DNA from: an uncultured delta proteobacterium
Lineage (GTDB): Bacteria > Desulfobacterota > Syntrophorhabdia > Syntrophorhabdales > WCHB1-27
Direction of reading: 5' to 3'
DNA length: 64,000 bases
NCBI GenBank assembly: GCA_963835595.1
Contig: CAWIGL010000002.1
Span: 2,534,459-2,598,458 of the forward strand
The notes under the pieces are model-generated. The model was not told the origin of the DNA and did not search any database. It saw nothing but the letters and a program-made list of their open reading frames with translations. Position 1 is the first letter of the stretch; the number at the start of each line of letters is the position of its first letter. Positions 54 to 43,941 of the stretch are shown here, one piece after another. The translations under genes and the position numbers were made by a program.

Positions 54-2723
54 ATGGGCGACATAAAAAGGATGTTCGATCCCCGAAGCATTGCGCTGAT
101 AGGCGCCAGCGATAAGGAGCGCTCCGCAGGGAGGATCATCCTCGAAAACCTTTTGCTTTCGAAGGAAAGGAAGATCTTCGCGGTAAATCCCGAGAGAAAA
201 AAGCTGTTCAATGTAGTCGAGAGTTATCCGAGCATTTCGCGGGTGCCCTGGCCGGTGGACCTCGCCGTAATAGCGACGCCTGCCCAGACCGTGCCTCCCC
301 TTGTCGAAGAATGCGGCAAGGCTGGGGTCGAGGCGTTGATTATCGTTTCTGCGGGCTTCAAAGAGGTAGGCGCGGAGGGAGAGGGGCTTGAGAGGCGGGT
401 GGCGGAGCTTCAAAAGCAGTACAAGATGCGGCTCCTCGGCCCCAATTGCCTGGGGTACATCAGGCCCCAGCTCGACCTGAACACGACCCCCGTCGAGGCC
501 ATGCCCGTCACAGGGAATATCGCCTTCATCTCGCAGAGCGGCGCCTTCGGGAGGGCGCTGCTCCATTGGGGCATCAGCGCCCGTGTGGGTTTCAGCATGT
601 TCGTTTCCCTTGGGTCGATGATCGACGTCGATTTCGGCGAGATGATCGATTTTCTCGGCTACGACAGCCACACGAGAAGTGTCATGATCTACATGGAGGA
701 AAGCATAGGCGACGTGAAGAGGTTCATGAGCGCTGCCCGAGGCTTTGCCCGCAACAAGCCTATCGTTTTGCTCCGGCCGCCCCGCCTCGGCGAGGGCGGA
801 ACCCCTGCCCGGACCCATACGGGACAGATGGCCGCAAGCGACCGCGTGTGTGACGCAGTGCTCAAAAGGGTCGGCGTCGTGCGCGTGAAGTCTACAGCCG
901 ACCTGTTCAATACTGCCGCTGTCCTTTATTCCAGACGCTTGCCGAAAGGCCCCAGGGTAGCAATCATCGCTAACGCCTTCGGCATTGCCTCGATGGCCGG
1001 CCATACCCTGCTGGAGCTCGGCGGCAGGCTTGCAGGACTCTCGGAGGAGACGCTGGCTGCCCTGGATTCCATCATGCCCCCTTACTGGAAGAAGGGCAAC
1101 CCCGTGGACATCTTGAGAGACGCAGATGCGGAGCGTTATACGAAGGCCATCAAGATCTGCCTGCACGACGCGGAGGTGGACGGGATATTGGTCATCTTTG
1201 CCCCGGAAGACACGGTCGGGCCCGAAGAGCTGGCCTCTGCCGTAGCGATGACGGCTAAGGAGGCCGCGAAGCCCGTTATCGCGTCATGGATGGGCAGCAG
1301 AGACATGGGGGGCGCGAGGGAGGTCTTCCTTGAGAGCAACGTGCCGATGTACGACTCACCCGAAGAAGCCGTAAGGACCTATCTTTATATGTACAACTAC
1401 GAGCGAAACCTGGAGCTGCTCTATGAGACGCCTGCCGACCTTCCCGTGGACCAGGCGCCGCCGAAGAACACCCTGAAGGCGCTGATAAAGAGGGTGGCGG
1501 GCACGGGCAGGCTCGTCCTTACCGAGGAAGAGGCGAAGCGGTTTCTCAGCAGCTACGGCATACCCGTGAACAGGGCCTACCCGGTGCAGAGCGTAGGGCA
1601 GGCGGTAAACGTGGCAGGAGCGATCGGGTATCCCCTGGTGCTCAAGGCTGCCTCGACGGATATCGCCTGCAAGAGCGAGGCGGGGTGCACCATCACAGGC
1701 ATCAGCTCGGAGACGGAGCTGAAGGAAGGGTGCGAGAAGCTTACAAAAAGGATCGAGCAGCTTTACCCCGGCGTAAAGACAGCGGGCTTCACCGTTCAAA
1801 AGATGATGGAAAAAATAGATTTCGAGATCATTTTGGGGGCGAAGAAAGACGAGGATTTCGGGTCTGTCATCCTCTTTGGTATGGGCGGCGCGGACGTGGA
1901 GATCTTCAGCGACTTTTCCATCGGCCTGCCTCCCCTGAACCAGACGCTCGGCAGGAGGCTGATGGAGGAGACGAGGCTGTATCGGCTGATTCAGGGCCGC
2001 AGGGGGAAGCCCCAGGCAGACCTGAAGCAGCTTGAGCAGATCATCGTCAGTTTTTCGAACCTTATCGTCGATTTCCCTGAAATCCTGGAGATGGACATCA
2101 ACCCCATCGCCGTTTGCGACGGCGAGGCCTGTGCACTCGATGCGAAGATCGTGATAGACAAGAATTGCCTCAACCATAGGGCCCGTTATCCGCACCTGGT
2201 CCTTACCCCCTATCCCACCAAGTATATTACGGACTGGACCCTTGCAGACGGTACCCCCGTCCTTCTGCGGCCCATAAGGCCGGAGGATGAGCCGCTGGAG
2301 CACGAGATGCTGACAAGCCTGTCGAAGGAGACGCTGCGCCAGCGGTTCTTTCAGGTCATAAAGCACATCAGCCATGAGATGCATATAAGGTTCTGCAACA
2401 TAGATTACGACAGGGAAATGGCGATTGTGGCCGAGATCAGGCAAGACGGGAAGCGCAGGATTATAGGCATAGGCAGGCTCATCGTGGAGCCGGATGCGAA
2501 GAAAGGGGAGTTCGCCGTAGTGGTCCACGATGACTTTCACGGCAAGGGCCTTGGATACAAGCTGGCCGATATGGTGATCGGAATAGCCCAGGAGAAAGGG
2601 CTTGAGGAGTGTTACGCCTTTATCCAGTCCGACAACAGGAAGATGCTCGGTTTATGCGGAAAGCTTGGATGCAGCATGGAGAACCTGCCGGACGGCATCA
2701 CCAGGGTAAGTCTTCTCGCCTGA
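54..2723 (+). CDS. Pat/PatZ-type bifunctional protein: NDP-forming acyl-CoA synthetase-like domains fused to a C-terminal GNAT acyltransferase domain (889 aa)
   Basis: N-terminal CoA-binding Rossmann region (MFDPRSIALIGASDKERSAGRII), succinyl-CoA-synthetase-like and ATP-grasp regions with SHTG-like His motif (ARTHTGQMA), C-terminal GNAT core (IGIGRLIV...HDDFHGKGLGYKL). Length and order match Pat-type protein lysine acetyltransferases. Confidence 0.85.
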   Translation: MGDIKRMFDPRSIALIGASDKERSAGRIILENLLLSKERKIFAVNPERKKLFNVVESYPSISRVPWPVDLAVIATPAQTVPPLVEECGKAGVEALIIVSAGFKEVGAEGEGLERRVAELQKQYKMRLLGPNCLGYIRPQLDLNTTPVEAMPVTGNIAFISQSGAFGRALLHWGISARVGFSMFVSLGSMIDVDFGEMIDFLGYDSHTRSVMIYMEESIGDVKRFMSAARGFARNKPIVLLRPPRLGEGGTPARTHTGQMAASDRVCDAVLKRVGVVRVKSTADLFNTAAVLYSRRLPKGPRVAIIANAFGIASMAGHTLLELGGRLAGLSEETLAALDSIMPPYWKKGNPVDILRDADAERYTKAIKICLHDAEVDGILVIFAPEDTVGPEELASAVAMTAKEAAKPVIASWMGSRDMGGAREVFLESNVPMYDSPEEAVRTYLYMYNYERNLELLYETPADLPVDQAPPKNTLKALIKRVAGTGRLVLTEEEAKRFLSSYGIPVNRAYPVQSVGQAVNVAGAIGYPLVLKAASTDIACKSEAGCTITGISSETELKEGCEKLTKRIEQLYPGVKTAGFTVQKMMEKIDFEIILGAKKDEDFGSVILFGMGGADVEIFSDFSIGLPPLNQTLGRRLMEETRLYRLIQGRRGKPQADLKQLEQIIVSFSNLIVDFPEILEMDINPIAVCDGEACALDAKIVIDKNCLNHRARYPHLVLTPYPTKYITDWTLADGTPVLLRPIRPEDEPLEHEMLTSLSKETLRQRFFQVIKHISHEMHIRFCNIDYDREMAIVAEIRQDGKRRIIGIGRLIVEPDAKKGEFAVVVHDDFHGKGLGYKLADMVIGIAQEKGLEECYAFIQSDNRKMLGLCGKLGCSMENLPDGITRVSLLA

Positions 2724-6853: not shown

Positions 6854-7138
6854 ATGCTGTGGATGGAAATGATCCGTCTGAGAACGACGAAGTCTCAAGT
6901 GGAGGCAGTCGCCCGCCTGATCCTTGACAATGTCAGGCAGGCGGCCGGCGAATCGGGCCTCCTTCGGGTCCATATGTACCACAGTGCGAAATATCGGGCA
7001 GACCTGGCGCTCAGTCTTATGTGGGAGACCAATGCGATGCAAAACGAAGGGAGCAGGACCGGTCTGAGCATAAGCGAGGCGCTCAAGAATTTCGGCCTTG
7101 TCGAGCACTCGATATGGATGGAGAAGGAGGCGACGTGA
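6854..7138 (+). CDS. Small ABM-like (dimeric alpha+beta barrel, antibiotic-biosynthesis-monooxygenase-like) protein, about 90 aa; start uncertain (alternatives at 6863 and 6869)
   Basis: Pattern ...GESGLLRVHMYHS...ADLALSLMWETNA...FGLVEHSIW resembles the ABM fold signature (..GCLRYELHRD...FVLYEVWES..); no strong SD. Confidence 0.35.
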   Translation: MLWMEMIRLRTTKSQVEAVARLILDNVRQAAGESGLLRVHMYHSAKYRADLALSLMWETNAMQNEGSRTGLSISEALKNFGLVEHSIWMEKEAT

Positions 7139-7172
7139 GCAAAAGCACTGTTGCGGGGATTGGGAGCGCTTA

Positions 7173-9908
7173 ATGGGCGACATAAGAAAAATGTTCGAAC
7201 CGAAAACTATTGCGGTTTTCGGCGATATGGCCGCAGAGGGTTCCGTAGAAAGGATACTCCTCGCCAACCTCCTGCTCTCGGACAGGCATAAGACCTTCTG
7301 GGTACACGCCGGCGCAAACGACGGGGAACCCCTGAAAAAGGTGAAAAAAGGCACAAAGCCGAAGCCCTTGGTGGTCAGCCCGACGGGTGAGTCGATGTTC
7401 GACCTGGTCTCGTATCCCGACGTGGCGAGCATCCCGGAAAAGGTAGACCTCGCGGTAATCTCAAGCCCTGCGCCCGCAGTCCCTCAAATAGTTGAGGAAT
7501 GCGGGAAAGCGGGGGTGGAGGGGATCGCTATCATTTCCGGAGGCTTCAGGGAGGCCGGAGAGGAAGGGCTAAAGCTGGAGGAGGAGGTCAGCCGGATAAG
7601 CAAAACCTACGGCATGAGGGTGCTGGGGCCCAACCGGGGCAGCATCATAAGGCCGAGCATCGGCCTCAACACGTCGATCTTCGACGTGCAGCCCGGTGAA
7701 GGGAACATCGCGTTCATTTCGCAGAGCGCCTCGATTGCGCGCGTAGTCCTCGACTGGGCGGCGAACGCCCATGTGGGCTTCAGCATGGTCATCTCCCTCG
7801 GCTCGATGGCCGATATAGACTTCGGCGACCTTATCGATTTCCTCGGCGAAGACCCGCTGACGCGGAGCATCATGATCTACATGGAGTCGGTCGGCAATGC
7901 GCGCAAATTCATAAGCGCGGCCCGCAGCTTCGCCAGGAGCAAGCCGATCATAGTCGTAAAGTCGGGCCAGTTCAAGGAGAGCGCGCGGGCGTCCCGTTCC
8001 CATACGGGGTCGGTCTCAGGCTACGACAAGGCATACGAGGTTGCCTTCAGGCGGGCAGGGGTCGTCCGGGTCCGGGAGATCATGGACCTTTTCAACGCTT
8101 CGGAGGTGCTCCATTCCAAGAACCTGCCGGGAGGGCCGTCGCTCGCGATAGTAACGAACGCCGGCGGCCTGGGCGTAATGGCAACGGATATCCTCATCGA
8201 CCTCGGGGGGAAGCTGGCCCGGCTGTCGCAGGAGTCGATAAACGCGCTGAGCGCTTTCCTGCCGTCCCATTGGAGCAAGAATAACCCCGTGGACCTTTTC
8301 GGGGATGCCGATATCGAGCGCTACACGAAGGCAGTCAACGTCTGTCTCGCAGACAGCAATGTGGACGGGATCCTCGTGATCTACGCGTCGAGCACGGCCG
8401 CCGAGCCTTCAGGGCTCGCGGCGGCCGTGGCGGAGATCGCCAGGCAGGCGGCGAAGCCCGTGATCGTCACCTGGATGGGCGGCGCCGCCGTTCAGGAAGG
8501 CAAAAAGGCGTTCAAGGAGATACGGATACCCGTCTACGAGACGCCGGAAGAGGCCATAAAGACGTACCTATATATGTATCGCTACAAGAGGAACCTCGAG
8601 CTCCTCTACGAGACCCCCGCCGACCTGTCCGTTGACCAGTCTCCCCCGAAGAACAACCTGAAGGCGTTCATCCGGCGGACCCTCAAGGAAGGAAAGATGG
8701 TCCTTACAGAGGCGGAATCGAAGAACTTCCTGAACAGCTACGGCATTCCGAGCACTATCCCCCATGCGGTAGAAAGCGTCGAAGCCGCCTCCAGTTGGGC
8801 GGACAGGATGGGCTACCCCATAGTCCTCAAGGTGGTCTCCCCCGATGTCCTCCGCAGGAGCGAGGTGGGCGGGACGGCGGTCGTCTATTCGGCCGGCAGG
8901 CTCCGGTCCGAATACGACGCGTTGCTGAGGAGGGTAGGGGAGAATCGCCCGGGTGCGAAAATCACCGGCGTAACGGTCGAAAAGATGGTCGAGGGCATCG
9001 AAAATCAGCTTGCCCTGGGGGCCAACAAAGATACCGATTTTGGGTGCATGATTTACTTTGGCATGGGTGGTATAGGTTCGGATGTTTACAGAGATATCTC
9101 ATTCGGGATACCACCCCTCAACCAGACCCTCGCCAGGCTCCTCATGGAGGAGACCGAGGTCTACAAGGTGCTCAAGGGCGGCGGCTCCAGGAAGCCGGCG
9201 GATTTGCGCGAGATCGAGCAGATCATCGTCAGCTTCTCCGATCTCGTAATCGACTTCCCCGAGATAGCAGAGATCAGCATTAACCCGATTGTCATATCGA
9301 AAGGCAAACCGCTCGCGGTGAACGCCCGGATAACCCTTGAAAGCGGAGAGGTTGGGCAGACAAGCCAGTATCCCCATCTGGTCATTACTCCTTATCCTAT
9401 GCGTTACGTGAGCCAGTGGCTGCTCGCGGACGGCAAGCACGTGCTGCTCCGGCCGATAAAACCGGAGGACGAGCCGCTGGAGCACGAGCTGCTCAGCTCG
9501 CTCTCGGAAGCTACGATGAGGGCGCGGTTTTTCTCGATCATCAAGGACATCTCCCATGAGATGCTCATCCGGTACTGCAACATCGACTACGACAGGGAGA
9601 TGGCTATAGTCGCCGAGGTGCGGGAGAACGAGAAGAGGAAGATGATAGGCATAGGGCGCCTGATCGTAGACAGGGAGTTCAAGTCCGGGGAGTTTGCGGT
9701 GCTCGTCCATGACGACTACCAGGGGAAGGGGTTGGGCCTGAAGCTCGTGGACGTGCTTATCGGCATTGCGGAGGATAAAGGACTCGACCGTATTTACGGC
9801 GAGATACTGACAGAGAATGAAAAAATGATCGCGGTATGCAGAAAGCTCGGATTTACCGTCGAGACGGCTGACGAGGAGATGACCAGGGTCAACCTCGAGC
9901 TCCGTTGA
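7173..9908 (+). CDS. Second Pat/PatZ-type acyl-CoA-synthetase-like/GNAT fusion protein (911 aa from MGDIRKMF; ORF-track upstream extension rejected)
   Basis: Start aligns with paralog 1 (MGDIKRMFDP vs MGDIRKMFEP); SRSHTGSVSG His motif; C-terminal GNAT (IGIGRLIV...HDDYQGKGLGLKL). Confidence 0.85.
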   Translation: MGDIRKMFEPKTIAVFGDMAAEGSVERILLANLLLSDRHKTFWVHAGANDGEPLKKVKKGTKPKPLVVSPTGESMFDLVSYPDVASIPEKVDLAVISSPAPAVPQIVEECGKAGVEGIAIISGGFREAGEEGLKLEEEVSRISKTYGMRVLGPNRGSIIRPSIGLNTSIFDVQPGEGNIAFISQSASIARVVLDWAANAHVGFSMVISLGSMADIDFGDLIDFLGEDPLTRSIMIYMESVGNARKFISAARSFARSKPIIVVKSGQFKESARASRSHTGSVSGYDKAYEVAFRRAGVVRVREIMDLFNASEVLHSKNLPGGPSLAIVTNAGGLGVMATDILIDLGGKLARLSQESINALSAFLPSHWSKNNPVDLFGDADIERYTKAVNVCLADSNVDGILVIYASSTAAEPSGLAAAVAEIARQAAKPVIVTWMGGAAVQEGKKAFKEIRIPVYETPEEAIKTYLYMYRYKRNLELLYETPADLSVDQSPPKNNLKAFIRRTLKEGKMVLTEAESKNFLNSYGIPSTIPHAVESVEAASSWADRMGYPIVLKVVSPDVLRRSEVGGTAVVYSAGRLRSEYDALLRRVGENRPGAKITGVTVEKMVEGIENQLALGANKDTDFGCMIYFGMGGIGSDVYRDISFGIPPLNQTLARLLMEETEVYKVLKGGGSRKPADLREIEQIIVSFSDLVIDFPEIAEISINPIVISKGKPLAVNARITLESGEVGQTSQYPHLVITPYPMRYVSQWLLADGKHVLLRPIKPEDEPLEHELLSSLSEATMRARFFSIIKDISHEMLIRYCNIDYDREMAIVAEVRENEKRKMIGIGRLIVDREFKSGEFAVLVHDDYQGKGLGLKLVDVLIGIAEDKGLDRIYGEILTENEKMIAVCRKLGFTVETADEEMTRVNLELR

Positions 9909-9965: not shown

Positions 9966-10616
9966 ATGAAGAGTCCCACACCTGCACCATACAGCTATTC
10001 CGGCGCCAGCGCCCGTCCCTCGCTCCTTTACGAAGTGAGGAAGGTGCTGAAGTACCAGTCTGAGCTGAACCCGGAGTTCGGCAAGGACGTAGCCCAGAAG
10101 GCCCACGGGGAGAACCTCTTCGCGTGCATACAGTGCGGCACATGCTCAGGCACCTGCCCGGTGAGCCATTATATGGACTACACGCCGAGGAGGATCATCG
10201 CGATGGTCCGCTCAGGGTTCGAGGAAGAGGTCCTGGCGAGCTCGACCATCTGGCTTTGCGCCTCCTGCTACCAGTGCACGGTAGATTGCCCGAAGCAGAT
10301 CAAGATTACGGATATCATGTACGCCCTGAAGCAGAAGGCTATAGCGCGCCACGTCTATCCGGCCAAGTTCCCCATACCCATCATGGCCGAGGAGTTCTAC
10401 AAGAACGTTGCGAAGAACGGCAGGAACTCGGAAGGCGCCCTCATGATAAACATGGCGCGCAGGACGAGCATCTTCAATCTCTTCAAGTACACGCGCCTCG
10501 GGATGAAGCTCTTTATGACGGGCAGGATGGCCCTCAGGGAGGAGGGCATAGAGAACAAGGCGCAGCTCCGCACGCTTCTGCGGGGCGTAGAAAAGGCTGA
10601 GGAGGAAGCGAGATGA
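9966..10616 (+). CDS. hdrC: Heterodisulfide reductase subunit C-like (two 4Fe-4S ferredoxin motifs)
   Basis: CIQCGTCSGTCP and CASCYQCTVDCP motifs; 216 aa; AAGGAGG RBS; directly upstream of hdrB. Confidence 0.8.
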   Translation: MKSPTPAPYSYSGASARPSLLYEVRKVLKYQSELNPEFGKDVAQKAHGENLFACIQCGTCSGTCPVSHYMDYTPRRIIAMVRSGFEEEVLASSTIWLCASCYQCTVDCPKQIKITDIMYALKQKAIARHVYPAKFPIPIMAEEFYKNVAKNGRNSEGALMINMARRTSIFNLFKYTRLGMKLFMTGRMALREEGIENKAQLRTLLRGVEKAEEEAR

Positions 10617-11494
10617 AGTATCTCTATTATCCAGGCTGTTCCCTGAAGAGCACCGGCAAGCCTTACGAGGAATCGCTGAAGGCGGTCTTCTCCGCGCTCA
10701 ACGTCCCCCTCGAAGAGCTTCGGGACTGGAATTGCTGCGGCGCCACTGCCTACATGGCCGTAGACGAGGTGAAGTCCTTCGCCCTCTCCGCGCGCAACCT
10801 GGCCCTTGCTGAGAAGCAGGGCGAGCCGGCGGAAAACGGCCATGTCCAGCTCGTCGCCCCATGTTCCGCCTGCTATGCCCTCCACCTGAAGACCCAGCAC
10901 TACCTTGACGAGAAGGAGGACATAAGGAAGAAGGTCGAGCGGGGGCTGAAAGAGGCGTCTCTCACCTATGAGGGAAGGGTCGATGTGCGCCATCCCCTCG
11001 ACGTGCTGGTGAACGACATCGGGACCGAAAAGATAAAAGAGGCGGTAAAATCGCCCCTCGGAAACAAGGTGGCGTGCTACTACGGCTGCCAGATCGTCAG
11101 GCCGTATGCGACGTTCGACAACCAGGCAAGCCCGACCAGCCTCGATAAGCTGATGCAGGCCATAGGGGCCACGCCCGTAGAATGGGCCATGAAGACGCGC
11201 TGCTGCGGCGGCACGCTCGTCGGCACGATCAGGGAGGTCGGCTTCCGTCTCAACTATCTCATCCTCAAGGAGGCGGAGAGGAAGGGGGCCGATACCCTGG
11301 CCACTACCTGCCCCTTGTGCCAGTTCGGTCTGGAATGTTTTCAGCCCGACGTGAACGCCAGCTGGCAGGCGAGCTTCCATACCCCTGTCGTCTACTTTAC
11401 GCAGTTGTTGGGGCTGGCCCTCGGCATCCCGGAGAAAAAGCTAGGTATGCAACGGCTCTTCGTGCCGTACAAGAAGGCTCAAATAGGAGGTTAG
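10613..11494 (+). CDS. hdrB: Heterodisulfide reductase subunit B-like (two CCG cysteine-rich domains)
   Basis: NCCGATAY...CYYGCQ and TRCCGGT...CPLCQF motifs; ATGA start/stop overlap with hdrC. Confidence 0.85.
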   Translation: MKYLYYPGCSLKSTGKPYEESLKAVFSALNVPLEELRDWNCCGATAYMAVDEVKSFALSARNLALAEKQGEPAENGHVQLVAPCSACYALHLKTQHYLDEKEDIRKKVERGLKEASLTYEGRVDVRHPLDVLVNDIGTEKIKEAVKSPLGNKVACYYGCQIVRPYATFDNQASPTSLDKLMQAIGATPVEWAMKTRCCGGTLVGTIREVGFRLNYLILKEAERKGADTLATTCPLCQFGLECFQPDVNASWQASFHTPVVYFTQLLGLALGIPEKKLGMQRLFVPYKKAQIGG

Positions 11495-11497
11495 CGA

Positions 11498-13486
11498 ATG
11501 GCAGCGAACGGACTACCAAAAGTAGGGGTCTACCTATGCGACTGCGGCACGAACATCGCCGCCACAGTCGACGTGCCGGCAGTGGTGGAATTTGCTTCCA
11601 CCCTCCCCGGCGTAGTAGTCGCCCGGGAATATAAATACATCTGCTCGGAGCCGGGGCAGCAGTTGATCCAGCAGGACATCAAGGAAAAGAACCTTGAGAG
11701 GGTCGTTGTCGCTTCCTGCTCGCCAAGGATGCACGAGCCGACATTCCAGGCGGCCGTGGCGAAGGCGGGCCTTAACCCCTTCTATTTCGCTATGGTCAAC
11801 ATCAGGGAGCACGTCTCGTGGGTCGTCAAAGACAAGGACCTGGCCACCGCCAAGGCGAAGAGGCTCCTTCGGGCCGCGGTGGGAAGGGTCGTCCTCCAGG
11901 AAGAGCTTTTCTCCCGGACGGACCCGGTCACCCCGGCCGCGATGGTGGTGGGCGGAGGCATCGCCGGCATCCAGTCGGCGCTGACGATCGCCGACGCGGG
12001 CTACAAGATCTACCTCGTCGAGCGCAACCCCTCGATCGGCGGCCATATGGCCCAGCTCGACAAAACGTTCCCGACGCTAGACTGTAGCACCTGAATCCTC
12101 GGCCCCAAGATGATGGATGCCGGTCGGCATCCGAACATCACCCTGCTGACGAATAGCGAAGTGACGAATGTCTCGGGCTACGTGGGTAATTACAAGGTAA
12201 GCGTAAAGAAGAAGCCGCGCTATATCAAGGAGGAGCTTTGTGTGGGCTGCCTCCAGTGCATAGACGGCTGCACCTATAAAGAGGCGAAGTTCGCCGACGA
12301 GTTCCAGATGGGCCTCGGCAAGCGCAAGCCCATCTACCTGCCCTTCCCCCAGGCGACCCCCCAGGTCGTGCTCATCGACCCGGACCGCTGCATCCAGTTG
12401 AAGACGGGGAAATGCAAAAAGACCTGTGCGGAGGCCTGCGACAGGAAGGCCATCGACTTCGACCAGAAAGAAGAGACCATCGAGGTCGATGTGGGCGCCA
12501 TTGTCGTCTCGACGGGCTTCGAGACCTTCGACGCGGCGAGGCTCCCGCAGTACGGCTACGGCGTTTATCCGAACGTCTATACGGGCCTCGAAGTCGAGAG
12601 GCTTACGAGCGCTTCCGGGCCTACCGGCGGCGAAGTGGTCCTGCGGGACGGCAGCCACCCGAAGAGCGTCGGCATCGTCCACTGCGTCGGCTCCCGCGAC
12701 GAGAAGACGAACCGCTGGTGCTCAAGGGTCTGCTGTATGTATTCGTTGAAGCTGGCCCACATGGTTAAGGACCACACGGGCGCCGACGTCTATAATTTCT
12801 ACATCGATATGCGCACCCCCGGAAAGAGCTACGAGGAGTTCTACGACAAGCTCCTCTCCGAGGGCGTCAATTTCGTCCGTGGCCGCGTAGCCGAGGTTAC
12901 CGACTGGGCGATAAGGCCGGAGGAGGAAGGGAAGCTCGTGATCCGGGTGGAAGATACCCTCGTCGGCGTGGTGAGAAGGATTCCCGTCGATATGGTCATC
13001 CTTTCCACGGGTCTCCAGCCCCAGGCGGACGCCGGTGCAGTGGCGTCGATGTTCGGCATAAGCCGGACCGCGGACGGCTTCTTCGCGGAGGCCCATCCGA
13101 AGCTGCGGCCGGTCGAGACGAATACCGACGGGGTCTATCTTGCGGGCTGCGCCCAGGGGCCCAGGGACGTGCCCGATACGGTCGCCCATGCAGGGGCGGC
13201 CGCGTCGATGGTCATCGGTCTTCTCAACAGGGGACAGGTGACCATATCGCCGACAGTGGCCGCGGTAGATGAGAAGCTATGCTCCGCCTGCAAGACGTGC
13301 CTCTCCGTCTGCCCGTACCAGGCGATCAGCTTCGACGCCGGGAAGAAGGTGGCGGGCGTCAACGAAGCCCTGTGCAAGGGGTGCGGCACCTGCGTGGCTG
13401 CCTGCCCTGCGGGGGCAATCACGGGCCGCCATTTCTCGGACGAGCAGATCGTTGCCCAGATAGAAGGGCTTCTCAAAACTGCTTAA
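11498..13486 (+). CDS. hdrA: Heterodisulfide reductase subunit A-like flavoprotein with an in-frame TGA (12092-12094) read as selenocysteine; 662 aa
   Basis: FAD motif VVGGGIAGIQSAL; the two ORF-track pieces (11498-12094, 12110-13486) share one frame, split only by TGA inside FPTLDCST-U-ILGPKMM (Cys in non-Sec HdrA: DCSMCILAPKM); several 4Fe-4S Cys clusters downstream. Confidence 0.8.
12108..12139 (+). other. SECIS-like stem-loop 13 nt downstream of the hdrA UGA (GAUG[AUG]GAUGCC-GGUC-GGCAUC[CGAA]CAUC)
   Basis: Two-tier hairpin, apical loop GGUC, at the spacing of bacterial SECIS elements. Confidence 0.4.
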
Positions 13487-13495
13487 AGGAGCACG

Positions 13496-13930
13496 ATGAT
13501 GAACTTTGAACCAAAAATAATCGCCTTCCTCTGCAATTGGTGCACTTACACCGCAGCCGATGCGGCAGGCGTCGCCCGTATGGAGCAGCCGGCGAACGTG
13601 GACGTAATCCGCGTCATGTGCACGGGCAGGATAGAGCCCATGTTCGTCATGAAGGCTTTTGCCGAAGGGGCGGACGGGGTTATCGTTTCCGGCTGCCATC
13701 CGCCGGGAGACTGCCATTACACGAACGGCAACTTCAAGACCTTCCGCCGTATGCCTCTTTTGGCGACGCTCCTTTCCCAGTTCGGCATCGAGAAGGGGAG
13801 GTTCCACTGGGGCTGGATATCCGGCGCGGAGGCGCCCAAGTGGGCGGAACTTGCCCGGAGCTTCACCGAACAGGTACGCGGCCTGGGGCCACTCGACTGG
13901 AAGGCCCAGCTCGCGAGCAAGGAGGATTAG
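13496..13930 (+). CDS. mvhD: MvhD/FlpD-like iron-sulfur protein (methyl-viologen-reducing hydrogenase delta subunit)
   Basis: MMNFEPKIIAFLCNWCTYTAAD...VMCTGRIEP...VSGCHPPGDCHY, characteristic MvhD Cys pattern. Confidence 0.8.
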   Translation: MMNFEPKIIAFLCNWCTYTAADAAGVARMEQPANVDVIRVMCTGRIEPMFVMKAFAEGADGVIVSGCHPPGDCHYTNGNFKTFRRMPLLATLLSQFGIEKGRFHWGWISGAEAPKWAELARSFTEQVRGLGPLDWKAQLASKED

Positions 13931-13931
13931 C

Positions 13932-14891
13932 ATGGCTGATAAACTGAAGCTCGCCCTCTACTGGGCTGCATCGTGCGGAGGCTGCGAGATCGCCATCGTC
14001 GAGCTGCGCGAGAAGATACTTATCGTCGACCAGGTGGCCGACATTCTCTTCTGGCCGGTCGCTGTAGACACAAAGTATAAGGACGTGGAGGCCATGCCGG
14101 ACGGCCACATCGACGTCTGCCTGTTCAACGGGGCGATCCGCACGAGCGAGAACGAGCACTTGGCCCACCTCCTGCGGAAGAAATCAAAGGTCCTCGTCGC
14201 CTTCGGCTCCTGCGCGAACGAAGGCTGCATGCCCGGCCTGGCGAACCTCTACGACCGGGAGTCGATTTTCAGTTACGCCTATCTGGAATCCCCGTCGGTG
14301 GACAACCCGAACAAGGTCGTCCCCCAGACGCAGAACAAGATGCCCGAAGGGGAGATCGAGATACCCAAGTTCTACCAGACGGTCAAGACGCTTTCTCAGG
14401 TCGTCGATGTAGACTACCACGTACCCGGCTGTCCGCCGCAGGCCCCGCAGATATGGGCGGTGATAGAGGCGATAGTCCAGGGCAAGCTCCCCGCGAAAGG
14501 GAGCGTGGTCGGCGCGAACGACAAGACCGTCTGCGACGAGTGCAAGCACGAGCGCAAGGAGAAGGCGATCAAGAAGTTTTACCGCACCTACGAGATCATC
14601 CCCGAGTCCACGCAGTGCCTCTTCGACCAGGGCCTGATTTGTGCCGGACCGGCTACGAGGGGCGGCTGCGGCGCACTCTGCACGAAGGTCGATGTGCCCT
14701 GCCGGGGCTGCTACGGACCCCCGCCCCATATCGTAGACCAGGGGGCTGCCCTGATGTCTGCCGCGGCGTCCGTGGTGGATGCGGATACGGAAGAGGAGGC
14801 GGCCCGCATCGTGGGCGAGATCGCCGACCCTATAGGGACCTTCTACCGCTTCGGCTTGCCGGCGTCGCTCCTGCACCGGAAGAAGATGTAA
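13932..14891 (+). CDS. mvhG: [NiFe] hydrogenase small subunit (F420-non-reducing / Mvh type)
   Basis: MADKLKLALYWAASCGGCEIA... small-subunit N-terminal Cys motif; real start is internal to ORF-track 13659-14891, preceded by AAGGAGGA. Confidence 0.8.
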   Translation: MADKLKLALYWAASCGGCEIAIVELREKILIVDQVADILFWPVAVDTKYKDVEAMPDGHIDVCLFNGAIRTSENEHLAHLLRKKSKVLVAFGSCANEGCMPGLANLYDRESIFSYAYLESPSVDNPNKVVPQTQNKMPEGEIEIPKFYQTVKTLSQVVDVDYHVPGCPPQAPQIWAVIEAIVQGKLPAKGSVVGANDKTVCDECKHERKEKAIKKFYRTYEIIPESTQCLFDQGLICAGPATRGGCGALCTKVDVPCRGCYGPPPHIVDQGAALMSAAASVVDADTEEEAARIVGEIADPIGTFYRFGLPASLLHRKKM

Positions 14892-14931: not shown

Positions 14932-16395
14932 ATGAAGAAGATAAGCATTGATCCCGTGACCCGGCTCGAAGGACACGGAAGGATAGACCTCTTCCTGGAC
15001 GACCAGGGAGAGGTGGCCAATGCCTATATGGTCATCCCCGAGCTTAGGGGGTTCGAGAAATTCTCCCAGGGGAGGTGCGTCGAGGAATTGACGGACATTA
15101 CCCCCCGCATCTGCGGCGTCTGCCCGGAGGCGCACCATCTCGCCGCCACCAAGGCCACGGACGAGGTTTTCCACGTCGATCCGCCGCCGGCGGCAAAGAA
15201 GCTGAGGGAGCTTTTCTACTCCGCCTTTTATGTAGCGGACCACACGGTCCACTTCTATATCCTGGGCGGGCCCGACTTCGTGATGGGCCCCGACGCCCCC
15301 GTTGCGGAGCGCAACATCCTGGGGGTGATCCATAAGGTAGGGGTGGAGATCGGCTCGAAGGTGATCGAGGCCAGGGGCAAGGCGATGGACGTCATCGGCA
15401 TGTTGGGGGGCAGGAAGATCCATCCCACCTTCGGGATCGCCGGGGGCGTGATGAAGTCCCTCACCGAAGAGGAGAGGAAGCAGGTGGAGCAGACGGCTGC
15501 CGACTCGATAGAGTTCGGCCTGTTCAGCCTGAAGCTCTTCAAGGACATCGTCCTCGCCAACAAGGGCTATCTCGACCTTATAATGTCGCCCATCTTCACC
15601 ATGCCGACGTACTACATGGGCATGGTGGACGACAAGAACAAGGTCAATTTCTACGACGGGAAGATCAGGGTGGTCGATCCCGAAGGGAAGGAGTTCGTAA
15701 AGTACAGCCCCAAGGATTACCTGGAGCACGTGGCGGAGCGCGTCGAGCCCTGGACGTATCTCAAGTTCCCGTATCTGAAGAAGGTGGGCTGGAAGGGCCT
15801 TACCCTGGGCAAGGATTCGGGGGTGTACCAGGCGACGCCGCTCTCCCGCCTCAACGCGTCGGACGGCATGGCTACGCCTAGGGCGCAGGAGGCCTATGAG
15901 GAGATGTTCAAGACGTTCGGCCATAAGCCCGTTCACAATCTCCTGGCTACGCACTGGGCGCGCCTGATCGAGCTTCTCTATGCGGCTGAGCGCCTCCAGG
16001 AGCTCTCCAGGGACCCCGGCATCACAGACCCGAAGGTCCGCAACATACCGACGGAGAAGCCGACGGAAGGCGTAGGCATCGTAGAGGCGCCCAGAGGCAC
16101 CCTTACCCATCACTATATCACCGATGAGAAGGGCATCGTAACGAAGGCGAACCTTATAGTCGGCACGACAAACAACTACGCGCCCATCTCCATCGCCGTG
16201 AAGCAGGCGGCGCAGGGGCTTATCAAGAAGGGCGTCGAGGTGACGGAGGGCATCCTCAACCGCGTGGAAATGGCCTTCCGCCTCTACGACCCGTGCTTCG
16301 GCTGCGCCACGCATACGCTCCCAGGCAGGATGCCGCTCGTCATCAATATCATGGACCCGAATGGAGAGGTAGTGCGGCAGATAAGAAGGGATTAA
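14932..16395 (+). CDS. mvhA: [NiFe] hydrogenase large subunit (Mvh type), Cys rather than Sec at the active site
   Basis: N-terminal RICGVCPEAHH (CxxC) and C-terminal DPCFGCATH (DPCxxCxxH) Ni-Fe ligand motifs; 487 aa. Confidence 0.85.
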   Translation: MKKISIDPVTRLEGHGRIDLFLDDQGEVANAYMVIPELRGFEKFSQGRCVEELTDITPRICGVCPEAHHLAATKATDEVFHVDPPPAAKKLRELFYSAFYVADHTVHFYILGGPDFVMGPDAPVAERNILGVIHKVGVEIGSKVIEARGKAMDVIGMLGGRKIHPTFGIAGGVMKSLTEEERKQVEQTAADSIEFGLFSLKLFKDIVLANKGYLDLIMSPIFTMPTYYMGMVDDKNKVNFYDGKIRVVDPEGKEFVKYSPKDYLEHVAERVEPWTYLKFPYLKKVGWKGLTLGKDSGVYQATPLSRLNASDGMATPRAQEAYEEMFKTFGHKPVHNLLATHWARLIELLYAAERLQELSRDPGITDPKVRNIPTEKPTEGVGIVEAPRGTLTHHYITDEKGIVTKANLIVGTTNNYAPISIAVKQAAQGLIKKGVEVTEGILNRVEMAFRLYDPCFGCATHTLPGRMPLVINIMDPNGEVVRQIRRD

Positions 16396-22001: not shown

Positions 22002-25000
22002 ATGAACCGGAACCTCTTCCCTTTAAGGGCCATTTTTCACAGAAGCGCGCTCACGAAAAAGGGCGCCGGCGAGGATGCGCCGCTGCGGTCTGACCTTTTC
22101 AGCGCTTCTCAGATGGAACAACACGGCAGGACCCTTGCGGCCCTGCACGCCGTGGGCGAGGATCATGCCCCGGAGAGGTTGTTGGCAAGGCTTGCTGCAA
22201 ACGAAGCCGTCCTTCTTGAAGTCCGCGACATAGTGGCTGAGGCCGTGAAGGCAAGCCGCAGGATTACCCCGGCCGGAGAATGGCTGCTCGACAACTTCTA
22301 TCTTATCGAAGAACAAATCAGGACGGCGAAAAGGCTGCTGCCGAAGGGGTACGCCAAGGGGCTGCCCCGCCTCAAAGACGGCCCGTCCAAGGGTCTTCCC
22401 CGCGTATATGATGTCGCCCTTGAGACGATTTCCCACGGCGATGGCCGGGTGGACCCGGAGGGCCTCGAAAGCTTCGTCGCCGCCTATCAGACGGTTACCA
22501 CGTTGCGGTTGGGCGAGCTATGGGCGATTCCCATCATGCTGCGTCTGGCATTGATCGAGAACCTCAGAAGGGTTGCAACGCGGATCGCCACCGACAGGAT
22601 CGACCGGAACTTCGCCGATTACTGGGCCGATAAAATAACGGAGACGGCAGAAACTGACCCGAAGAGTTTGATCCTGACAGTTGCCGACATGGCCAGGTCA
22701 AACCCGCCGATGGTCAGTTCCTTTGTTGCGGAGTTTACCCGTCGCCTCCAGGGACACGGCGCCCCACTTGCGCTCCCCCTTACCTGGATCGAGCAGCAGC
22801 TTTCCGGGTCGTACCTGACCATAGAACAGATGGTGCAATCGGAAAACCAGCAACAGGCGGCCGACCAGCTTTCCATGAGCAACAGCATCGGAAGCCTGCG
22901 CTTCCTTTCCGCCATGGACTGGCGCGAATTCGTCGAACGGATGAGCACCGTCGAGCGGACCCTGCGGGAGGACCCTGCCGGAGCCTATGGCAAAATGGCT
23001 TTTACCACCCGTGATCGCTACCGTCATGTCGTGGAGGAGATAACAAAGAAGAGCGGACTCGCCGAAGACGAGGTGGCCCGTCTCGCGATCGGTCTCGCCG
23101 GGGAAGCTGCAAACGGAACAAACGGCGATAACCGGGCGAGACACGTGGGTTACTACCTCATCGATGGGGGACTGCCAAAGCTCGAAGCCCGCGTCCGGGT
23201 CAGGTCGTCCGTCACCGACATGATTCGAAACATGGGTCGGAGATTTTCCCTGCCGGTCTATCTTGGCTCGATCCTCTCACTGGTGCTTATTTTCGCCGCA
23301 GGCATGGTCGCAGAGACCGCATCCAGCGGCATACGCGGCTCTCTGTTGTGGATCGTCGGCGTGCTCTCGCTCTTCTCGGTAAGCTCACTCGCGATAGCAC
23401 TGGTCAACCTTTTCACGACGCGTCTTGTCACACCCCATCCTCTGCCGCGAATGGACTTCTCCAAGGGGATTCCTCCCGAATCGTCTACCCTGGTCGTGGT
23501 CCCGACCATGCTGACGAGCCCTGAGAATATCGGCCATCTCGCCGACGCCCTGGAAGTCCGGTTTCTGGCAAACCGGGACGATAACCTCCGCTTTGGCCTG
23601 CTTACCGACTTCCGGGACGCCCCCGAGGAAGAGCCGACCGGGGACGAAGCACTCCTGCTACTGGCCCGGCAAAGCATAGAAGCGTTGAATGACAAATACA
23701 ATGGCCCGGCCGGCGATCTCTTTTTCCTGTTTCACCGCTCCCGTCAATGGAACCGGCAGGAACAAGCCTGGATGGGCTACGAGAGGAAGCGGGGGAAGCT
23801 CGCGGAACTGAATGCGCTTCTGCGCGGAGGAGCAGGCGCCGGATTCTCTCTCGTAGTCGGCAATACCAAAGACCTGTCGAACGTCAGATACGTCATCACC
23901 CTCGACACGGACACGGAGCTTCCGCGCGATTCCGCGCGGCAGCTCGCGGGGGCAATGGCCCATCCCCTCAATCTTCCCCTCTACGATGCGGATAAAGGGC
24001 GCATCGTGGCCGGATACGGCATTCTTCAGCCACGGGTGGCGATAAGCCTGACCGGCACCGACCGGTCGCGCTATGCCCGCATGTGGGGGAGCGATGCCGG
24101 CATCGATCCCTACACCCGTGTGGTCTCCGATGTCTACCAGGACCTCTTCGGCGAAGGCTCGTTCATCGGCAAGGGCATCTACGACGTTGACGCCTTCGAG
24201 CGGGTGCTCAAAGGACGTTTACCCGAGAACCTTATTCTGAGCCATGACCTCATCGAAGGGTGTTACGTGCGCTCGGGACTCATCAGCGACGTGCAGTTGT
24301 TTGAGGAGTACCCGTCACGGTACGGCGCGGACGTAAGCCGCCGCCGCCGCTGGATTCGGGGCGATTGGCAGGTTCTCAGGTGGCTCTTCCCCGGCGTTCC
24401 CGGCCTCAATGCCCGCTTCCGGAAGAACCCGCTCACCCCGTTGTCGCGCTGGAAGATACTCGACAACCTTCGGCGCAGTCTCGTGTCGCCGGCATTGACG
24501 CTTCTCGCGCTGGCCGGTTGGTGTGCGCTGCCGTCCCCCTGGTTCTGGGCTGCATCGATCATTGCTATCGTGCTGATCCCTTCCCTGATTGGCTCCCTCG
24601 TGGAGATCCTGAAAAAGCCTGACGACGTGCTCATGGGCCAACACCTCGCCGGTGCGGTCCGGTCCGCCGGCAGAAGCGTCACCCAGGCGATCTTCGTGCT
24701 CCTCTGCCTGCCTCATGAGGCATTCTTCGGCGGGGCCGCGATTCTGCACACCCTGTGGCAGATGCTGGTTTCAGGCAGGGGTCTTTTGGAATGGAACCCT
24801 TCAGGGGAAGCGGAGCGGGCGAGCCGGACGGATCTTGCCGGGTCCTGGCTGGCCATGTGGATCGCGCCGGTCATCGCCGCTGCGACGGCGGGGTATCTCC
24901 TGCATGCACGGCCTGTCGCACTGACCGCGGCTCTGCCGATCTTAAGCCTGTGGTTTATCTCTCCGGTTATCGCCTGGTGGATCAGTAAGCCCCTCCGTCC

Positions 25001-43026: not shown

Positions 43027-43092
43027 AAGACGGGATGGGGCAGACGAGCCACCGATAAAGCCCGGCATAGAGAGTTAAGAAAGACCGCATCG

Positions 43093-43931: not shown

Positions 43932-43941
43932 GAGCCTCCTC

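What the first reader, a model, noticed from the sequence alone, without database searches (positions are those of the whole stretch)
11498..13486. HdrA is a selenoprotein here: in-frame UGA at 12092 with a SECIS-like hairpin
The two ORF-track pieces are in the same frame and only the TGA separates them. The TGA falls exactly where Cys-version HdrA proteins have the second Cys of the CSMC motif (here DCST-U-ILGPKM). A two-tier stem-loop with apical GGUC begins 13 nt downstream. Sec-HdrA is known from methanogens and some sulfate reducers and syntrophs. Automated annotation would typically split this gene, and the organism must encode selABCD.
Basis: partly seen in the sequence, partly recalled or inferred. 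Interest (0 to 1): 0.55.

Follow-up and report, generated by a model that had tools for sequence, protein, structure and literature searches.

The report
Selenocysteine codon inside bacterial hdrA
The in-frame TGA in this heterodisulfide-reductase gene (hdrA) is almost certainly a real selenocysteine codon with its recoding hairpin, which is a well-known kind of selenoprotein that gene callers routinely split in two, so it is correct but ordinary.

Summary
One 662-codon hdrA (11498-13486, +) is interrupted only by TGA at 12092-12094. It lies in a canonical hdrC-hdrB-hdrA-mvhD-mvhG-mvhA cluster of a Syntrophorhabdales-like bacterium.

- **Position.** The TGA aligns with Cys197 of the crystallised HdrA (5ODC) and with Sec197 of Methanococcus maripaludis HdrA (9SFI). 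All 120 best full-length homologues have Cys there.
- **Hairpin.** GGAUGCC-GGUC-GGCAUCC (12115-12132) starts 20 nt after the TGA and meets every criterion of the published bacterial SECIS model.
- **Comparative evidence.** At least 120 bacterial genomes carry the same in-frame TGA. In 75 Sec-type genes encoding the same peptide, the synonymous sites of the hairpin are fixed (Gly GGU 75/75, His CAU 75/75), and GCC/CGG co-varies with GUC/CGA. Sixteen Cys-type controls encoding the same peptide use mixed codons.
- **Conservation.** Relatives at 91-99.9% nucleotide identity keep the TGA and the hairpin, and both halves are under purifying selection.
- **Second candidate.** An mvhD with TGA in its CxxC motif lies 2.7 kb upstream of the window in the same genome.

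selA, selB, selC and selD are not in the window and could not be looked for elsewhere in the genome. This is a new member of a known selenoprotein family and an annotation fix, of low novelty.

The parts
9966..10616 (+). hdrC (216 aa, 4Fe-4S dicluster subunit)
   Evidence: Pfam Fer4_8, Fer4_17 and Fer4_9. The same gene is called in related contigs L005-L009.
10613..11494 (+). hdrB (293 aa, two CCG cysteine-rich domains)
   Evidence: Pfam CCG, E = 4e-24, two stretches. A cluster member is named 'heterodisulfide reductase subunit B'.
11498..13486 (+). hdrA, one gene of 662 codons read through UGA-199. AGGAGG lies 8 nt upstream of the ATG. The terminal stop is TAA.
   Evidence: Translation. Full-length alignment to solved HdrA chains 8RVU, 5ODC, 9SFI and 7BKB at E = 1e-190 to 1e-220. 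Against L005, synonymous:non-synonymous codon changes are 31:8 before the TGA and 96:23 after it.
12092..12094 (+). UGA read as selenocysteine (Sec199, in the motif D-C196-S-T-U199)
   Evidence: Aligns with Cys197 of 5ODC and with X(Sec)197 of 9SFI (PMC13518236). All 120 best homologues have Cys here. The TGA is kept in L001 and L005-L009. At least 120 genome loci have the same in-frame TGA.
12095..12109 (+). Five codons (I-L-G-P-K) between the UGA and the next ATG. They are coding sequence, not an intergenic spacer.
   Evidence: The peptide ILxPK is kept in frame in all 121 Sec-type hits and in the Cys-type homologues. The only change against L005 is synonymous, AAG to AAA. No Shine-Dalgarno-like purine run is visible in the sequence.
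12115..12132 (+). Core of the bacterial SECIS: 7-bp stem GGAUGCC/GGCAUCC closing the apical loop GGUC (12122-12125)
   Evidence: -13.0 kcal/mol, z = -3.97. The loop is GGUC at the same offset in 84 of 122 Sec-hdrA genes. The synonymous sites are fixed in 75 Sec-type genes and mixed in 16 Cys-type controls, with Fisher p from 1e-5 to 6e-12. Pair 29:36 co-varies as C:G 51, U:A 32, U:G 14. RNAalifold on the subfamily predicts this hairpin.
12109..12139 (+). Extended two-tier SECIS: lower tier GAUG (12109-12112) pairs with CAUC (12136-12139), below bulged A 12113 and the internal loop AA 12134-12135
   Evidence: -15.5 kcal/mol, z = -3.2. Pairs 19:47 and 20:46 are kept in 118 and 117 of 118 sequences, but they lie in conserved codons, so this is weak evidence.
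13496..13930 (+). mvhD (144 aa), Cys-type (CNWC)
   Evidence: Pfam FlpD, E = 2e-48. Translation.
13932..14891 (+). mvhG, [NiFe] hydrogenase small subunit (319 aa)
   Evidence: Pfam Oxidored_q6. The start is taken from the 319-aa gene call in L005, offset by 8497.
14932..16395 (+). mvhA, [NiFe] hydrogenase large subunit (487 aa), Cys-type C-terminal motif DPCFGC
   Evidence: Pfam NiFeSe_Hases. Translation shows DPCFGCATH, with no Sec. A cluster member is named 'F420-non-reducing hydrogenase large subunit'.

Best explanation
hdrA is a single selenoprotein gene.

**Recoding (inferred from established bacterial Sec biology).** During translation, the hairpin at 12109-12139 (core 12115-12132, apical loop GGUC) acts as a bacterial SECIS. 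It binds SelB-GTP-Sec-tRNA(Sec) and delivers it to the ribosome when UGA 12092-12094 is in the A site. Residue 199 therefore becomes selenocysteine instead of terminating the chain.

**Product.** The result is a 662-residue HdrA, the FAD- and FeS-containing electron-bifurcating subunit of an HdrABC-MvhAGD hydrogenase/heterodisulfide-reductase-type complex. The complex is encoded by the surrounding hdrCBA-mvhDGA cluster. The motif is D-C196-S-T-U199.

**Role of the residue (taken from methanogen structures, not tested here).** In the crystallised methanogen complex, Cys197 ligates the N-terminal [4Fe-4S] cluster of the partner HdrA protomer. In the M. maripaludis cryo-EM structure, Sec197 appears to form a Cys-Sec selenylsulfide that may relay electrons between that cluster and FAD.

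**Shown here:**
- the frame;
- the homology;
- the exact alignment of the TGA;
- conservation of the TGA;
- the SECIS geometry;
- the codon-level selection that maintains the hairpin.

**Inferred:**
- actual Sec insertion;
- presence of selA, selB, selC and selD in the genome;
- the redox role of Sec199;
- the physiological substrate of the complex in a non-methanogen.
For: 1. **Single in-frame TGA in a full-length HdrA**.
2. **Position.** The TGA matches Cys197 of 5ODC and Sec197 of 9SFI (PMC13518236, PMC9012536). Cys is invariant in the 120 best homologues.
3. **SECIS geometry.** All four criteria of the published bSECIS model (PMC13188914, Fig. 2) are met:
   - a 4-nt apical loop and a 7-bp upper stem;
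   - GG at loop positions 1-2, followed by U;
   - 27 nt between the UGA and the loop;
   - -13 to -23.8 kcal/mol.
4. **Comparative test**:
   - At least 120 genome loci from many bacterial phyla have the same in-frame TGA.
   - In 75 non-identical Sec-type genes encoding xILGPKMxD[AV]GRH, Asp is GAU in 74/75, Gly is GGU in 75/75, His is CAU in 75/75, and the Ala/Val wobble is C in 75/75.
   - GCC pairs only with CGG (46/46). GUC pairs with CGA, CGG or AGG (29/29).
   - Sixteen Cys-type genes encoding the same peptide use mixed codons. Only 1 of 16 has all 7 pairs, against 67 of 75 Sec-type genes (p = 1e-10).
   - Wobble sites just upstream of the hairpin (alignment columns 12 and 15) vary freely.
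5. **Domain control.** Three Asgard archaeal Sec-hdrA genes, whose SECIS is expected in the 3' UTR, show no hairpin here.
6. **Conservation in the lineage.**
   - Contigs at 91.4-99.9% nucleotide identity from five other samples, plus an independent Logan assembly, keep the TGA.
   - The 54 nt after the TGA show one synonymous change.
   - The 198-aa and 458/466-aa fragments recur in 5 and 52 cluster members.
   - Both halves are under purifying selection.
7. **TGA is an ordinary stop** in 6 of 25 confident ORFs of the window, so this UGA needs site-specific recoding.
8. **A second candidate selenoprotein gene lies on the same 2,972,084-nt contig**. It is an mvhD reading ...AFCCEY-UGA-AYTAADLAG..., with the TGA at the second Cys of the CxxC motif. 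It has a conserved GGC-loop hairpin and is kept in six related contigs.
Against: - No selA, selB, selD or tRNA-Sec lies in the 64-kb window. The rest of the genome could not be searched, so the Sec machinery is inferred and not seen.
- The two closest full-length relatives found (81% and 75% identity; L002, L003) are Cys-type. The Sec state is therefore not universal in the immediate neighbourhood.
- No Rfam family matches the hairpin, even at E <= 10.
- RNAalifold on all 118 Sec-hdrA sequences together returns no consensus structure. It does return one on the homogeneous subfamily.
- The Sec-type sequences are not phylogenetically independent, so the Fisher p-values overstate significance.
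- There is no experimental evidence of Se incorporation.
Confidence: 0.93

Rival explanations
1. The gene is truly split or is a nonsense pseudogene. Translation ends at TGA 12092, and either the C-terminal 458 residues are made separately from ATG 12110 or the gene is decaying.
For: - Gene callers do produce two ORFs.
- An ATG lies 15 nt after the TGA.
- The closest full-length relatives are uninterrupted Cys-type genes.
Against: - The TGA occupies exactly the invariant Cys/Sec codon.
- The five codons between the TGA and the ATG still encode the conserved ILGPK, in frame, in all 121 Sec-type loci. Their only change against L005 is synonymous.
- No Shine-Dalgarno sequence precedes ATG 12110.
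- Both halves are under purifying selection.
- The same arrangement recurs in at least 120 genomes of many phyla, each with a hairpin maintained at synonymous sites.
- Splitting there would cut the FAD-binding thioredoxin-reductase-like domain in the middle.
Confidence: 0.03
2. The TGA is a sequencing or assembly error for TGT or TGC.
For: - The assembly shows at least one probable homopolymer indel, the UbiD frameshift near 49860.
- The near-identical long-read contig L148 has several frameshifts in a neighbouring gene.
Against: - The change is a substitution, not a homopolymer indel.
- The same TGA is present in an independent Logan assembly of run ERR11596056.
- It is present in four JGI metagenome contigs and in one ENA contig at 91-99.9% identity.
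- It is implied by 52 + 5 clustered fragment sequences.
Confidence: 0.01
3. The UGA is read through without selenium. Either a near-cognate or suppressor tRNA inserts Cys or Trp, or the organism uses a genetic code that reassigns UGA. In both cases the hairpin would only slow the ribosome.
For: - The Sec machinery was not seen.
- Sec/Cys interchange at this residue is tolerated in nature.
Against: - TGA terminates 6 of 25 confident ORFs in the window, so there is no code reassignment.
- The hairpin has the specific loop (GGUC) and the specific spacing that define SelB-binding SECIS elements (PMC13188914).
- Its loop bases are fixed across phyla, for example GGU in 75/75. A mere roadblock would not require that.
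- A second gene with TGA at a CxxC cysteine is in the same genome.
Confidence: 0.03

Closest known systems
Bacterial Sec-containing HdrA selenoprotein family (Zhang, Romero, Salinas and Gladyshev 2006, PMC1794560; reviewed in PMC13188914)
   Same: - The same protein family.
- UGA at the same residue, the second Cys of DCxxC.
- A SECIS hairpin inside the coding sequence immediately downstream.
- It occurs in anaerobic syntrophs and sulfate reducers, next to mvhD/frhD-type and hydrogenase genes.
   Different: - Here only HdrA of this operon is Sec-type. The adjacent MvhD (CNWC) and MvhA (DPCFGC) are Cys-type. In the hdrA-frhD-frhG-frhA operons described for Syntrophobacter and for methanogens, several subunits carry Sec.
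- The host is a Syntrophorhabdales-like lineage, which is not named in those surveys.
HdrA of Methanococcus maripaludis (Sec197; PDB 9SFI/9T1S, PMC13518236) and of the crystallised methanogen HdrABC-MvhAGD complex (Cys197; PDB 5ODC)
   Same: - A full-length alignment that covers residues 7-660 of the window protein.
- Sec199 here aligns with residue 197 there.
- The same hdrABC + mvhAGD partner set.
   Different: - Archaeal Sec insertion uses a SECIS in the untranslated region. This gene has a bacterial in-ORF SECIS, and the Asgard Sec-hdrA loci lack the hairpin at this site.
- The organism is not a methanogen, so CoM-S-S-CoB is not expected to be the substrate. That point is an inference.
E. 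coli fdhF SECIS, the reference SelB-binding hairpin (recalled from textbook knowledge, not tested here)
   Same: - A hairpin immediately 3' of the UGA.
- An apical loop reading GGUC, with the G and U recognised by SelB.
   Different: - Different stem sequence.
- The loop lies about 9 nt further from the UGA in hdrA (27 nt of spacing).
- No sequence homology.

Membership tests
Sec-containing HdrA (bacterial selenoprotein family) | The protein is a bona fide full-length HdrA: N-terminal FeS domain, FAD/thioredoxin-reductase-like domain, inserted ferredoxin domain and C-terminal ferredoxin domain. | tested here: met
   phmmer against PDB gives 8RVU, 5ODC, 9SFI and 7BKB at E = 1e-190 to 2e-220 over residues 7-660. 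Pfam finds FAD_oxidored, Pyr_redox_2 and Fer4 domains.
Sec-containing HdrA (bacterial selenoprotein family) | An in-frame UGA at the position of the conserved redox/ligand cysteine (Cys197 in 5ODC numbering), with the ORF continuing in frame. | tested here: met
   Residue 199 aligns with Cys197 of 5ODC and with X197 (Sec) of 9SFI. Cys is invariant in 120 homologues. 463 further codons follow in frame.
Bacterial SECIS (bSECIS consensus model, PMC13188914 Fig. 2) | An apical loop of 3-9 nt on an upper stem of 4-16 bp. | tested here: met
   A 4-nt loop GGUC (12122-12125) on a 7-bp stem, 12115-12121 paired with 12126-12132.
Bacterial SECIS (bSECIS consensus model, PMC13188914 Fig. 2) | At least one G in the first two loop positions, usually followed by G or U. 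| tested here: met
   The loop is G-G-U-C. GGUC is found in 84 of 122 Sec-hdrA genes.
Bacterial SECIS (bSECIS consensus model, PMC13188914 Fig. 2) | [quoted passage not shown] | tested here: met
   The UGA ends at 12094 and the loop starts at 12122, which gives 27 nt.
Bacterial SECIS (bSECIS consensus model, PMC13188914 Fig. 2) | Folding energy of -7.5 kcal/mol or lower. | tested here: met
   -13.0 kcal/mol for the 20-nt core, -15.5 for 31 nt and -23.8 for 69 nt.
Bacterial SECIS (functional element) | The structure is maintained by selection, seen as covariation or constrained synonymous sites specific to UGA-containing genes. | tested here: met
   Comparison of 75 Sec-type genes with 16 Cys-type genes encoding the same peptide. 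Pair 29:36 co-varies. RNAalifold on the subfamily predicts the hairpin. On the mixed set of 118 sequences RNAalifold finds nothing.
Selenocysteine-decoding organism | selA, selB, selC (tRNA-Sec) and selD are present in the genome. | not testable with these tools
The rest of the 2.97-Mb contig could not be fetched. Indirect support comes from a second conserved UGA-containing gene (mvhD) on the same contig.
Selenoprotein (experimental definition) | Selenium is incorporated at the UGA, shown by 75Se labelling or by mass spectrometry of a Sec peptide. | not testable with these tools
   This needs an experiment.
HdrABC-MvhAGD-type complex | Genes for HdrB (CCG domains), HdrC, MvhD and the [NiFe] hydrogenase small and large subunits are co-located. 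| tested here: met
   hdrC, hdrB, mvhD, mvhG and mvhA flank hdrA on the same strand. The order is the same in L003, L005-L009.

The most novel reading that the evidence does not exclude
The Syntrophorhabdales-like clade may be a recent Cys-to-Sec or Sec-to-Cys switch caught in the act.

- Its nearest relatives (75-81% identity) are Cys-type. One of them (L003) carries a near-SECIS with one mismatch and a GGGC loop. Some distant Cys-type genes (L130, L135) carry a perfect 'fossil' SECIS.
- The 18-nt SECIS core is identical in nucleotide sequence between this clade and Chloroflexota genes that share only about 60% protein identity with it.

If this is mapped on a tree, hdrA could serve as a natural series for studying how in-ORF SECIS elements are born, kept and lost. 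It could also show whether Sec-hdrA spreads horizontally as a module.
Probability: 0.3. Interest if true: 0.35.

Novelty: new member of a known kind. Interest (0 to 1): 0.2.

Why it matters
- **Annotation.** The gene is one 662-residue selenoprotein, not two fragments. The same mis-split is present in dozens of public gene calls for this lineage. The source genome has the same problem in an mvhD 2.7 kb upstream of the window.
- **Physiology.** The result implies that the central electron-bifurcating Hdr-Mvh module of this syntroph-like bacterium depends on selenium.
- **Mechanism.** Residue 197/199 is currently debated as either a ligand of an FeS cluster or a partner in a Cys-Sec selenylsulfide relay (PMC13518236, PMC9012536). 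The strict conservation of Sec at this site in more than 120 bacterial genomes adds weight to a special redox role for the residue. It does not resolve the question.
- **Reuse.** The codon-level contrast between Sec-type and Cys-type genes offers a simple, reusable computational test for in-ORF SECIS elements.

Tried and rejected
- **Rfam.** Neither the whole window at gathering threshold nor 12060-12200 at E <= 10 matched any SECIS family. The library does not appear to hold a model that fits this hairpin.
- **RNAalifold on all 118 bacterial Sec-hdrA regions.** It returned no consensus structure. Sub-families place their hairpins in slightly shifted registers, with loops such as GGC, GUG and GGU. 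On the homogeneous 75-sequence subfamily it does return the hairpin.
- **The outer helix of the minimum-energy fold (12096-12103 with 12145-12152).** Rejected as part of the element. Only 52% of its cells are paired across relatives.
- **Scan for further in-frame TGA genes in the window.** It gave 142 candidates, as expected by chance at 60% G+C. None other than 12092 looked like a coding join.
- **Search for Sec machinery.** The steps were:
  - tRNA scan;
  - NCBIfam and Pfam on about 45 ORFs;

  Nothing was found, and this says nothing about the other 2.9 Mb.
- **Reaching the source contig.** Exact look-ups of window proteins reported a contig of over 1 Mb (2,972,084 nt) but never returned its DNA. 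A look-up from the right edge of the window found nothing.
- **Fragmented hdrA-like gene upstream of the window in L148.** At first it looked like further Sec sites. It is Cys-type (DCSMC) and broken by frameshifts of that long-read contig. The gene is an intact 1469-aa ORF in the JGI contigs.
- **Structure prediction and fold search.** Not used, because sequence identity to solved HdrA structures made them unnecessary.
Full report
**1. The observation**

- The window has two same-frame ORFs on the + strand, 11498-12094 (198 aa) and 12110-13486 (458 aa).
- Translating 11498-13486 in one piece gives 662 codons. The single internal stop is TGA at 12092-12094, in the context LDKTFPTLDCST*ILGPKMMDAGRHP.
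- An AGGAGG lies 8 nt upstream of ATG 11498. No Shine-Dalgarno-like sequence lies between the TGA and the next ATG.
- RNA folding of 12092-12160 gives a stem-loop of -23.8 kcal/mol with apical loop GGUC.
  - The 20-nt core 12114-12133 folds at -13.0 kcal/mol. Its z-score is -3.97, and 0 of 200 shuffles fold as well.
  - The 31-nt two-tier version 12109-12139 folds at -15.5 kcal/mol, z = -3.2.
- The description is therefore correct. The only adjustment concerns where the hairpin starts:
  - the lower tier starts 14 nt after the TGA;
  - the conserved upper stem starts 20 nt after it;

**2. What the gene is**

- With Cys substituted for the stop, the protein aligns over residues 7-660 with solved HdrA chains (8RVU, 5ODC, 9SFI, 7BKB) at E = 1e-190 to 2e-220. 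It carries the expected FAD-binding and ferredoxin Pfam domains.
- The neighbours on the same strand are:
  - hdrC, 9966-10616;
  - hdrB, 10613-11494;
  - mvhD, 13496-13930;
  - mvhG, about 13932-14891;
  - mvhA, 14932-16395.
- This is the classical HdrABC-MvhAGD gene set.
- MvhA ends in DPCFGC and MvhD has CNWC. Both are Cys-type, so HdrA is the only Sec candidate in this operon.
- Exact look-ups place the window's proteins on a contig of 2,972,084 nt. The 90%-identity clusters of GroEL and MvhA contain members that NCBI names 'Syntrophorhabdales bacterium'. That order belongs to the Thermodesulfobacteriota.

**3. Position of the TGA**

- All 120 best full-length homologues have Cys at this residue: DCAAC in 118 and DCSIC in 2.
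- In the alignments to PDB chains, residue 199 falls on Cys197 of 5ODC. It also falls on the 'X' at position 197 of 9SFI_A.
- 9SFI is the M. maripaludis Hdr-Vhu-Fwd structure. Its authors describe Sec197 and a putative Cys-Sec selenylsulfide between the A3 cluster and FAD (PMC13518236).
- An earlier reading of the crystal structure has Cys197 ligating the N-terminal [4Fe-4S] cluster of the partner HdrA (PMC9012536).
- The TGA therefore sits at the one position where Sec is known in this family.

**4. Is the TGA real and conserved?**

- An independent Logan assembly of run ERR11596056 contains the same sequence, including the TGA.
- Four JGI metagenome contigs (91.4% nucleotide identity over the gene) and one ENA contig (99.9%) keep the TGA. 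They have the same 198-aa and 458-aa gene calls.
- The fragments recur in clusters of 5 and 52 members. Every one of the 13 listed members that is not cut at its N-terminal end starts with MMDAGRHPNITLLT.
- Against L005, synonymous:non-synonymous codon changes are 31:8 upstream and 96:23 downstream of the TGA.
- The 18 codons from the TGA onward show one synonymous change, where about four changed codons are expected (P = 0.05).
- TGA terminates 6 of 25 confident ORFs in the window, so the genetic code is standard.

**5. Is the hairpin a SECIS?**

The published bSECIS model (PMC13188914, Fig. 2) sets four requirements, and all are met here.

| Requirement | Value in the window |
|---|---|
| Apical loop of 3-9 nt | 4 nt |
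| Upper stem of 4-16 bp | 7 bp |
| G in loop position 1 or 2, usually followed by G or U | GGU |
| 16-37 nt between the UGA and the loop | 27 nt |
| Free energy of -7.5 kcal/mol or lower | -13 kcal/mol |

*The comparative test.*

The phyla include Thermodesulfobacteriota, Chloroflexota, Planctomycetota, KSB1, Calditrichota, Zixibacteria, Gemmatimonadota and Cloacimonadota, plus three Asgard archaea.
- All 121 matches are in-frame hdrA.
- GGUC occupies the same offset in 84 of 122 sequences.
- For a like-for-like control I took Sec-type and Cys-type genes that encode the same peptide, xILGPKMxD[AV]GRH. There were 75 non-identical Sec-type sequences. The 16 non-identical Cys-type sequences came from a metagenome scan plus L003.

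| Feature | Sec-type (n = 75) | Cys-type (n = 16) | Fisher p |
|---|---|---|---|
| Asp codon GAU | 74 | 13 | not computed |
| Gly codon GGU | 75 | 4 | 6e-12 |
| His codon CAU | 75 | 10 | 1e-5 |
| Ala/Val third base C | 75 | 7 | 1e-8 |
| All 7 stem pairs formed | 67 | 1 | 1e-10 |

- In the Sec-type set, GCC is always partnered by CGG (46/46). GUC is partnered by CGA, CGG or AGG (29/29). A C:A mismatch is never seen.
- These p-values ignore phylogenetic dependence. An internal control is clear, however. Wobble positions just upstream of the hairpin (alignment columns 12 and 15) have no majority base, while those inside it are fixed.
- The count of structure pairs gives 78% of cells paired for the hairpin helix, against 31-54% for the whole structure when the 3' partners are slid by 1-3 columns. 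Pair 29:36 co-varies as C:G 51, U:A 32 and U:G 14.
- RNAalifold finds nothing on the mixed set of 118 sequences, but it predicts the hairpin on the 75-sequence subfamily.
- Other bacterial sub-families have different hairpins at +26 to +31 with G-initial loops. The three Asgard genes have none, as expected for archaeal SECIS elements in untranslated regions.
- Two Cys-type genes (L130, L135) carry a perfect copy of the hairpin. This is most simply read as a fossil SECIS, a phenomenon already described (PMC1794560).

**6. Sec machinery**

- None is in the window:
  - The tRNA scan and Rfam find only one tRNA-Arg.
  - NCBIfam and Pfam scans of all large ORFs find no SelA, SelB or SelD.
- I could not fetch the rest of the source contig.
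- Walking 10 kb to the left on the 99.9%-identical contig L148 showed a metFV-hdrCBA-mvhD cluster.
  - Its mvhD reads MMSFEPNIIAFCCEY-TGA-AYTAADLAGSMRL..., with an AGGAGG upstream.
  - The TGA stands where the window's own MvhD has the second Cys of CNWC.
  - A GGC-loop hairpin follows, with 20 nt between the TGA and its loop.
- The 117-aa ORF after that TGA is on record on a contig of exactly 2,972,084 nt, the window's source contig.
- Six related contigs keep the TGA and the hairpin, while their other synonymous sites differ.
- MvhD/FrhD is a known selenoprotein family (PMC1794560).
- Two independent, conserved UGA-at-cysteine genes in one genome are good indirect evidence for a working Sec system. 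They are not proof.

**7. Mechanism, rivals and verdict**

- The best explanation (confidence 0.93) is SelB- and SECIS-dependent insertion of Sec at residue 199 of a single HdrA polypeptide.
- The rivals fit the data poorly for the reasons given above:
  - a true split or pseudogene (0.03);
  - a sequencing error (0.01);
  - selenium-independent read-through (0.03).
- Bacterial Sec-HdrA has been catalogued since 2006 (PMC1794560), and its archaeal counterpart has been seen at atomic resolution (PMC13518236).
- The finding is therefore a correct identification of a new member of a known family, plus an annotation correction.
- The nuances are modest:
  - only HdrA, and not MvhD or MvhA, is Sec-type in this operon;
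  - the nearest relatives are Cys-type, and one of them has a near-SECIS;
  - the SECIS core is nucleotide-identical across phyla.
- Interest is scored at 0.2.

Noticed in passing
L148 7230-7661 (TGA at 7275-7277). Window position 1 corresponds to L148 9948, so the gene lies about 2.7 kb upstream of the window start. Also L149-L154.: A second candidate selenoprotein gene in the same genome. It is the mvhD (FlpD) of a metF-metV-hdrCBA-mvhD cluster and reads ...AFCCEY-UGA-AYTAADLAG.... The UGA stands at the second Cys of the CxxC motif, and a GGC-loop hairpin follows. Gene callers truncate it to 117 aa. That 117-aa ORF is on record on the 2,972,084-nt source contig, and six related contigs keep the TGA.
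   Followed up: yes
window 49074-49892 and 49822-50520 (junction near 49859-49866): A UbiD-family decarboxylase is split into two frames at a GGGGCCC run. Deleting one G restores the canonical MEGPFGEWMGYF motif. This is probably a homopolymer error of a long-read assembly, or else a real frameshift pseudogene.
   Followed up: partly
window 59760-60326 and 60307-61374: Two adjacent ORFs in different frames match consecutive parts (positions 205-264 and 277-618) of the corrinoid activation protein AcsV. This may be another frameshift or a genuinely two-part gene.
   Followed up: no
L130 4268-4318 and L135 1462-1512 (metagenome contigs): Two Cys-type hdrA genes (TGT) carry a perfect GATGCCGGTCGGCATCC hairpin downstream. 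It looks like a fossil SECIS left by a Sec-to-Cys conversion. L003, the 75%-identical Cys relative of the window gene, has a near-copy with one mismatch and a GGGC loop.
   Followed up: partly
L011, L013, L015, L033, L081, L093 and others (alignment A1, columns 20-45): Other bacterial Sec-hdrA sub-families use different hairpins at the same place, for example GACGCG-GGC-CGCGUC, GGUGUCC-GUG-GGACGCC and GGCCUC-GGU-GAGGUC. All have G-initial loops at +26 to +31. Three Asgard archaeal genes (L026, L061, L065) have no hairpin there.
   Followed up: partly
L148 2650-7220, compared with L149 and L151: The 1469-aa fused HdrA/GltD-like gene of the metFV-hdr cluster is broken into several frames in the ENA long-read contig but is intact in the JGI contigs. 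It is Cys-type (DCSMC) at the position equivalent to Sec199. Its fragmentation is an assembly artefact, not recoding.
   Followed up: partly
window 54-2723 and 7098-9908: There are two paralogous fusions of an ADP-forming acyl-CoA synthetase with a GNAT acetyltransferase, about 890-936 aa each. The second lies directly upstream of hdrC.
   Followed up: no
window 22002-29144: A 2380-aa ORF with GH94 supersandwich, glucoamylase-like and GT2 domains, resembling a cyclic beta-1,2-glucan synthase. An XrtA/PEP-CTERM exopolysaccharide gene set lies further downstream, at 40633-45531.
   Followed up: no
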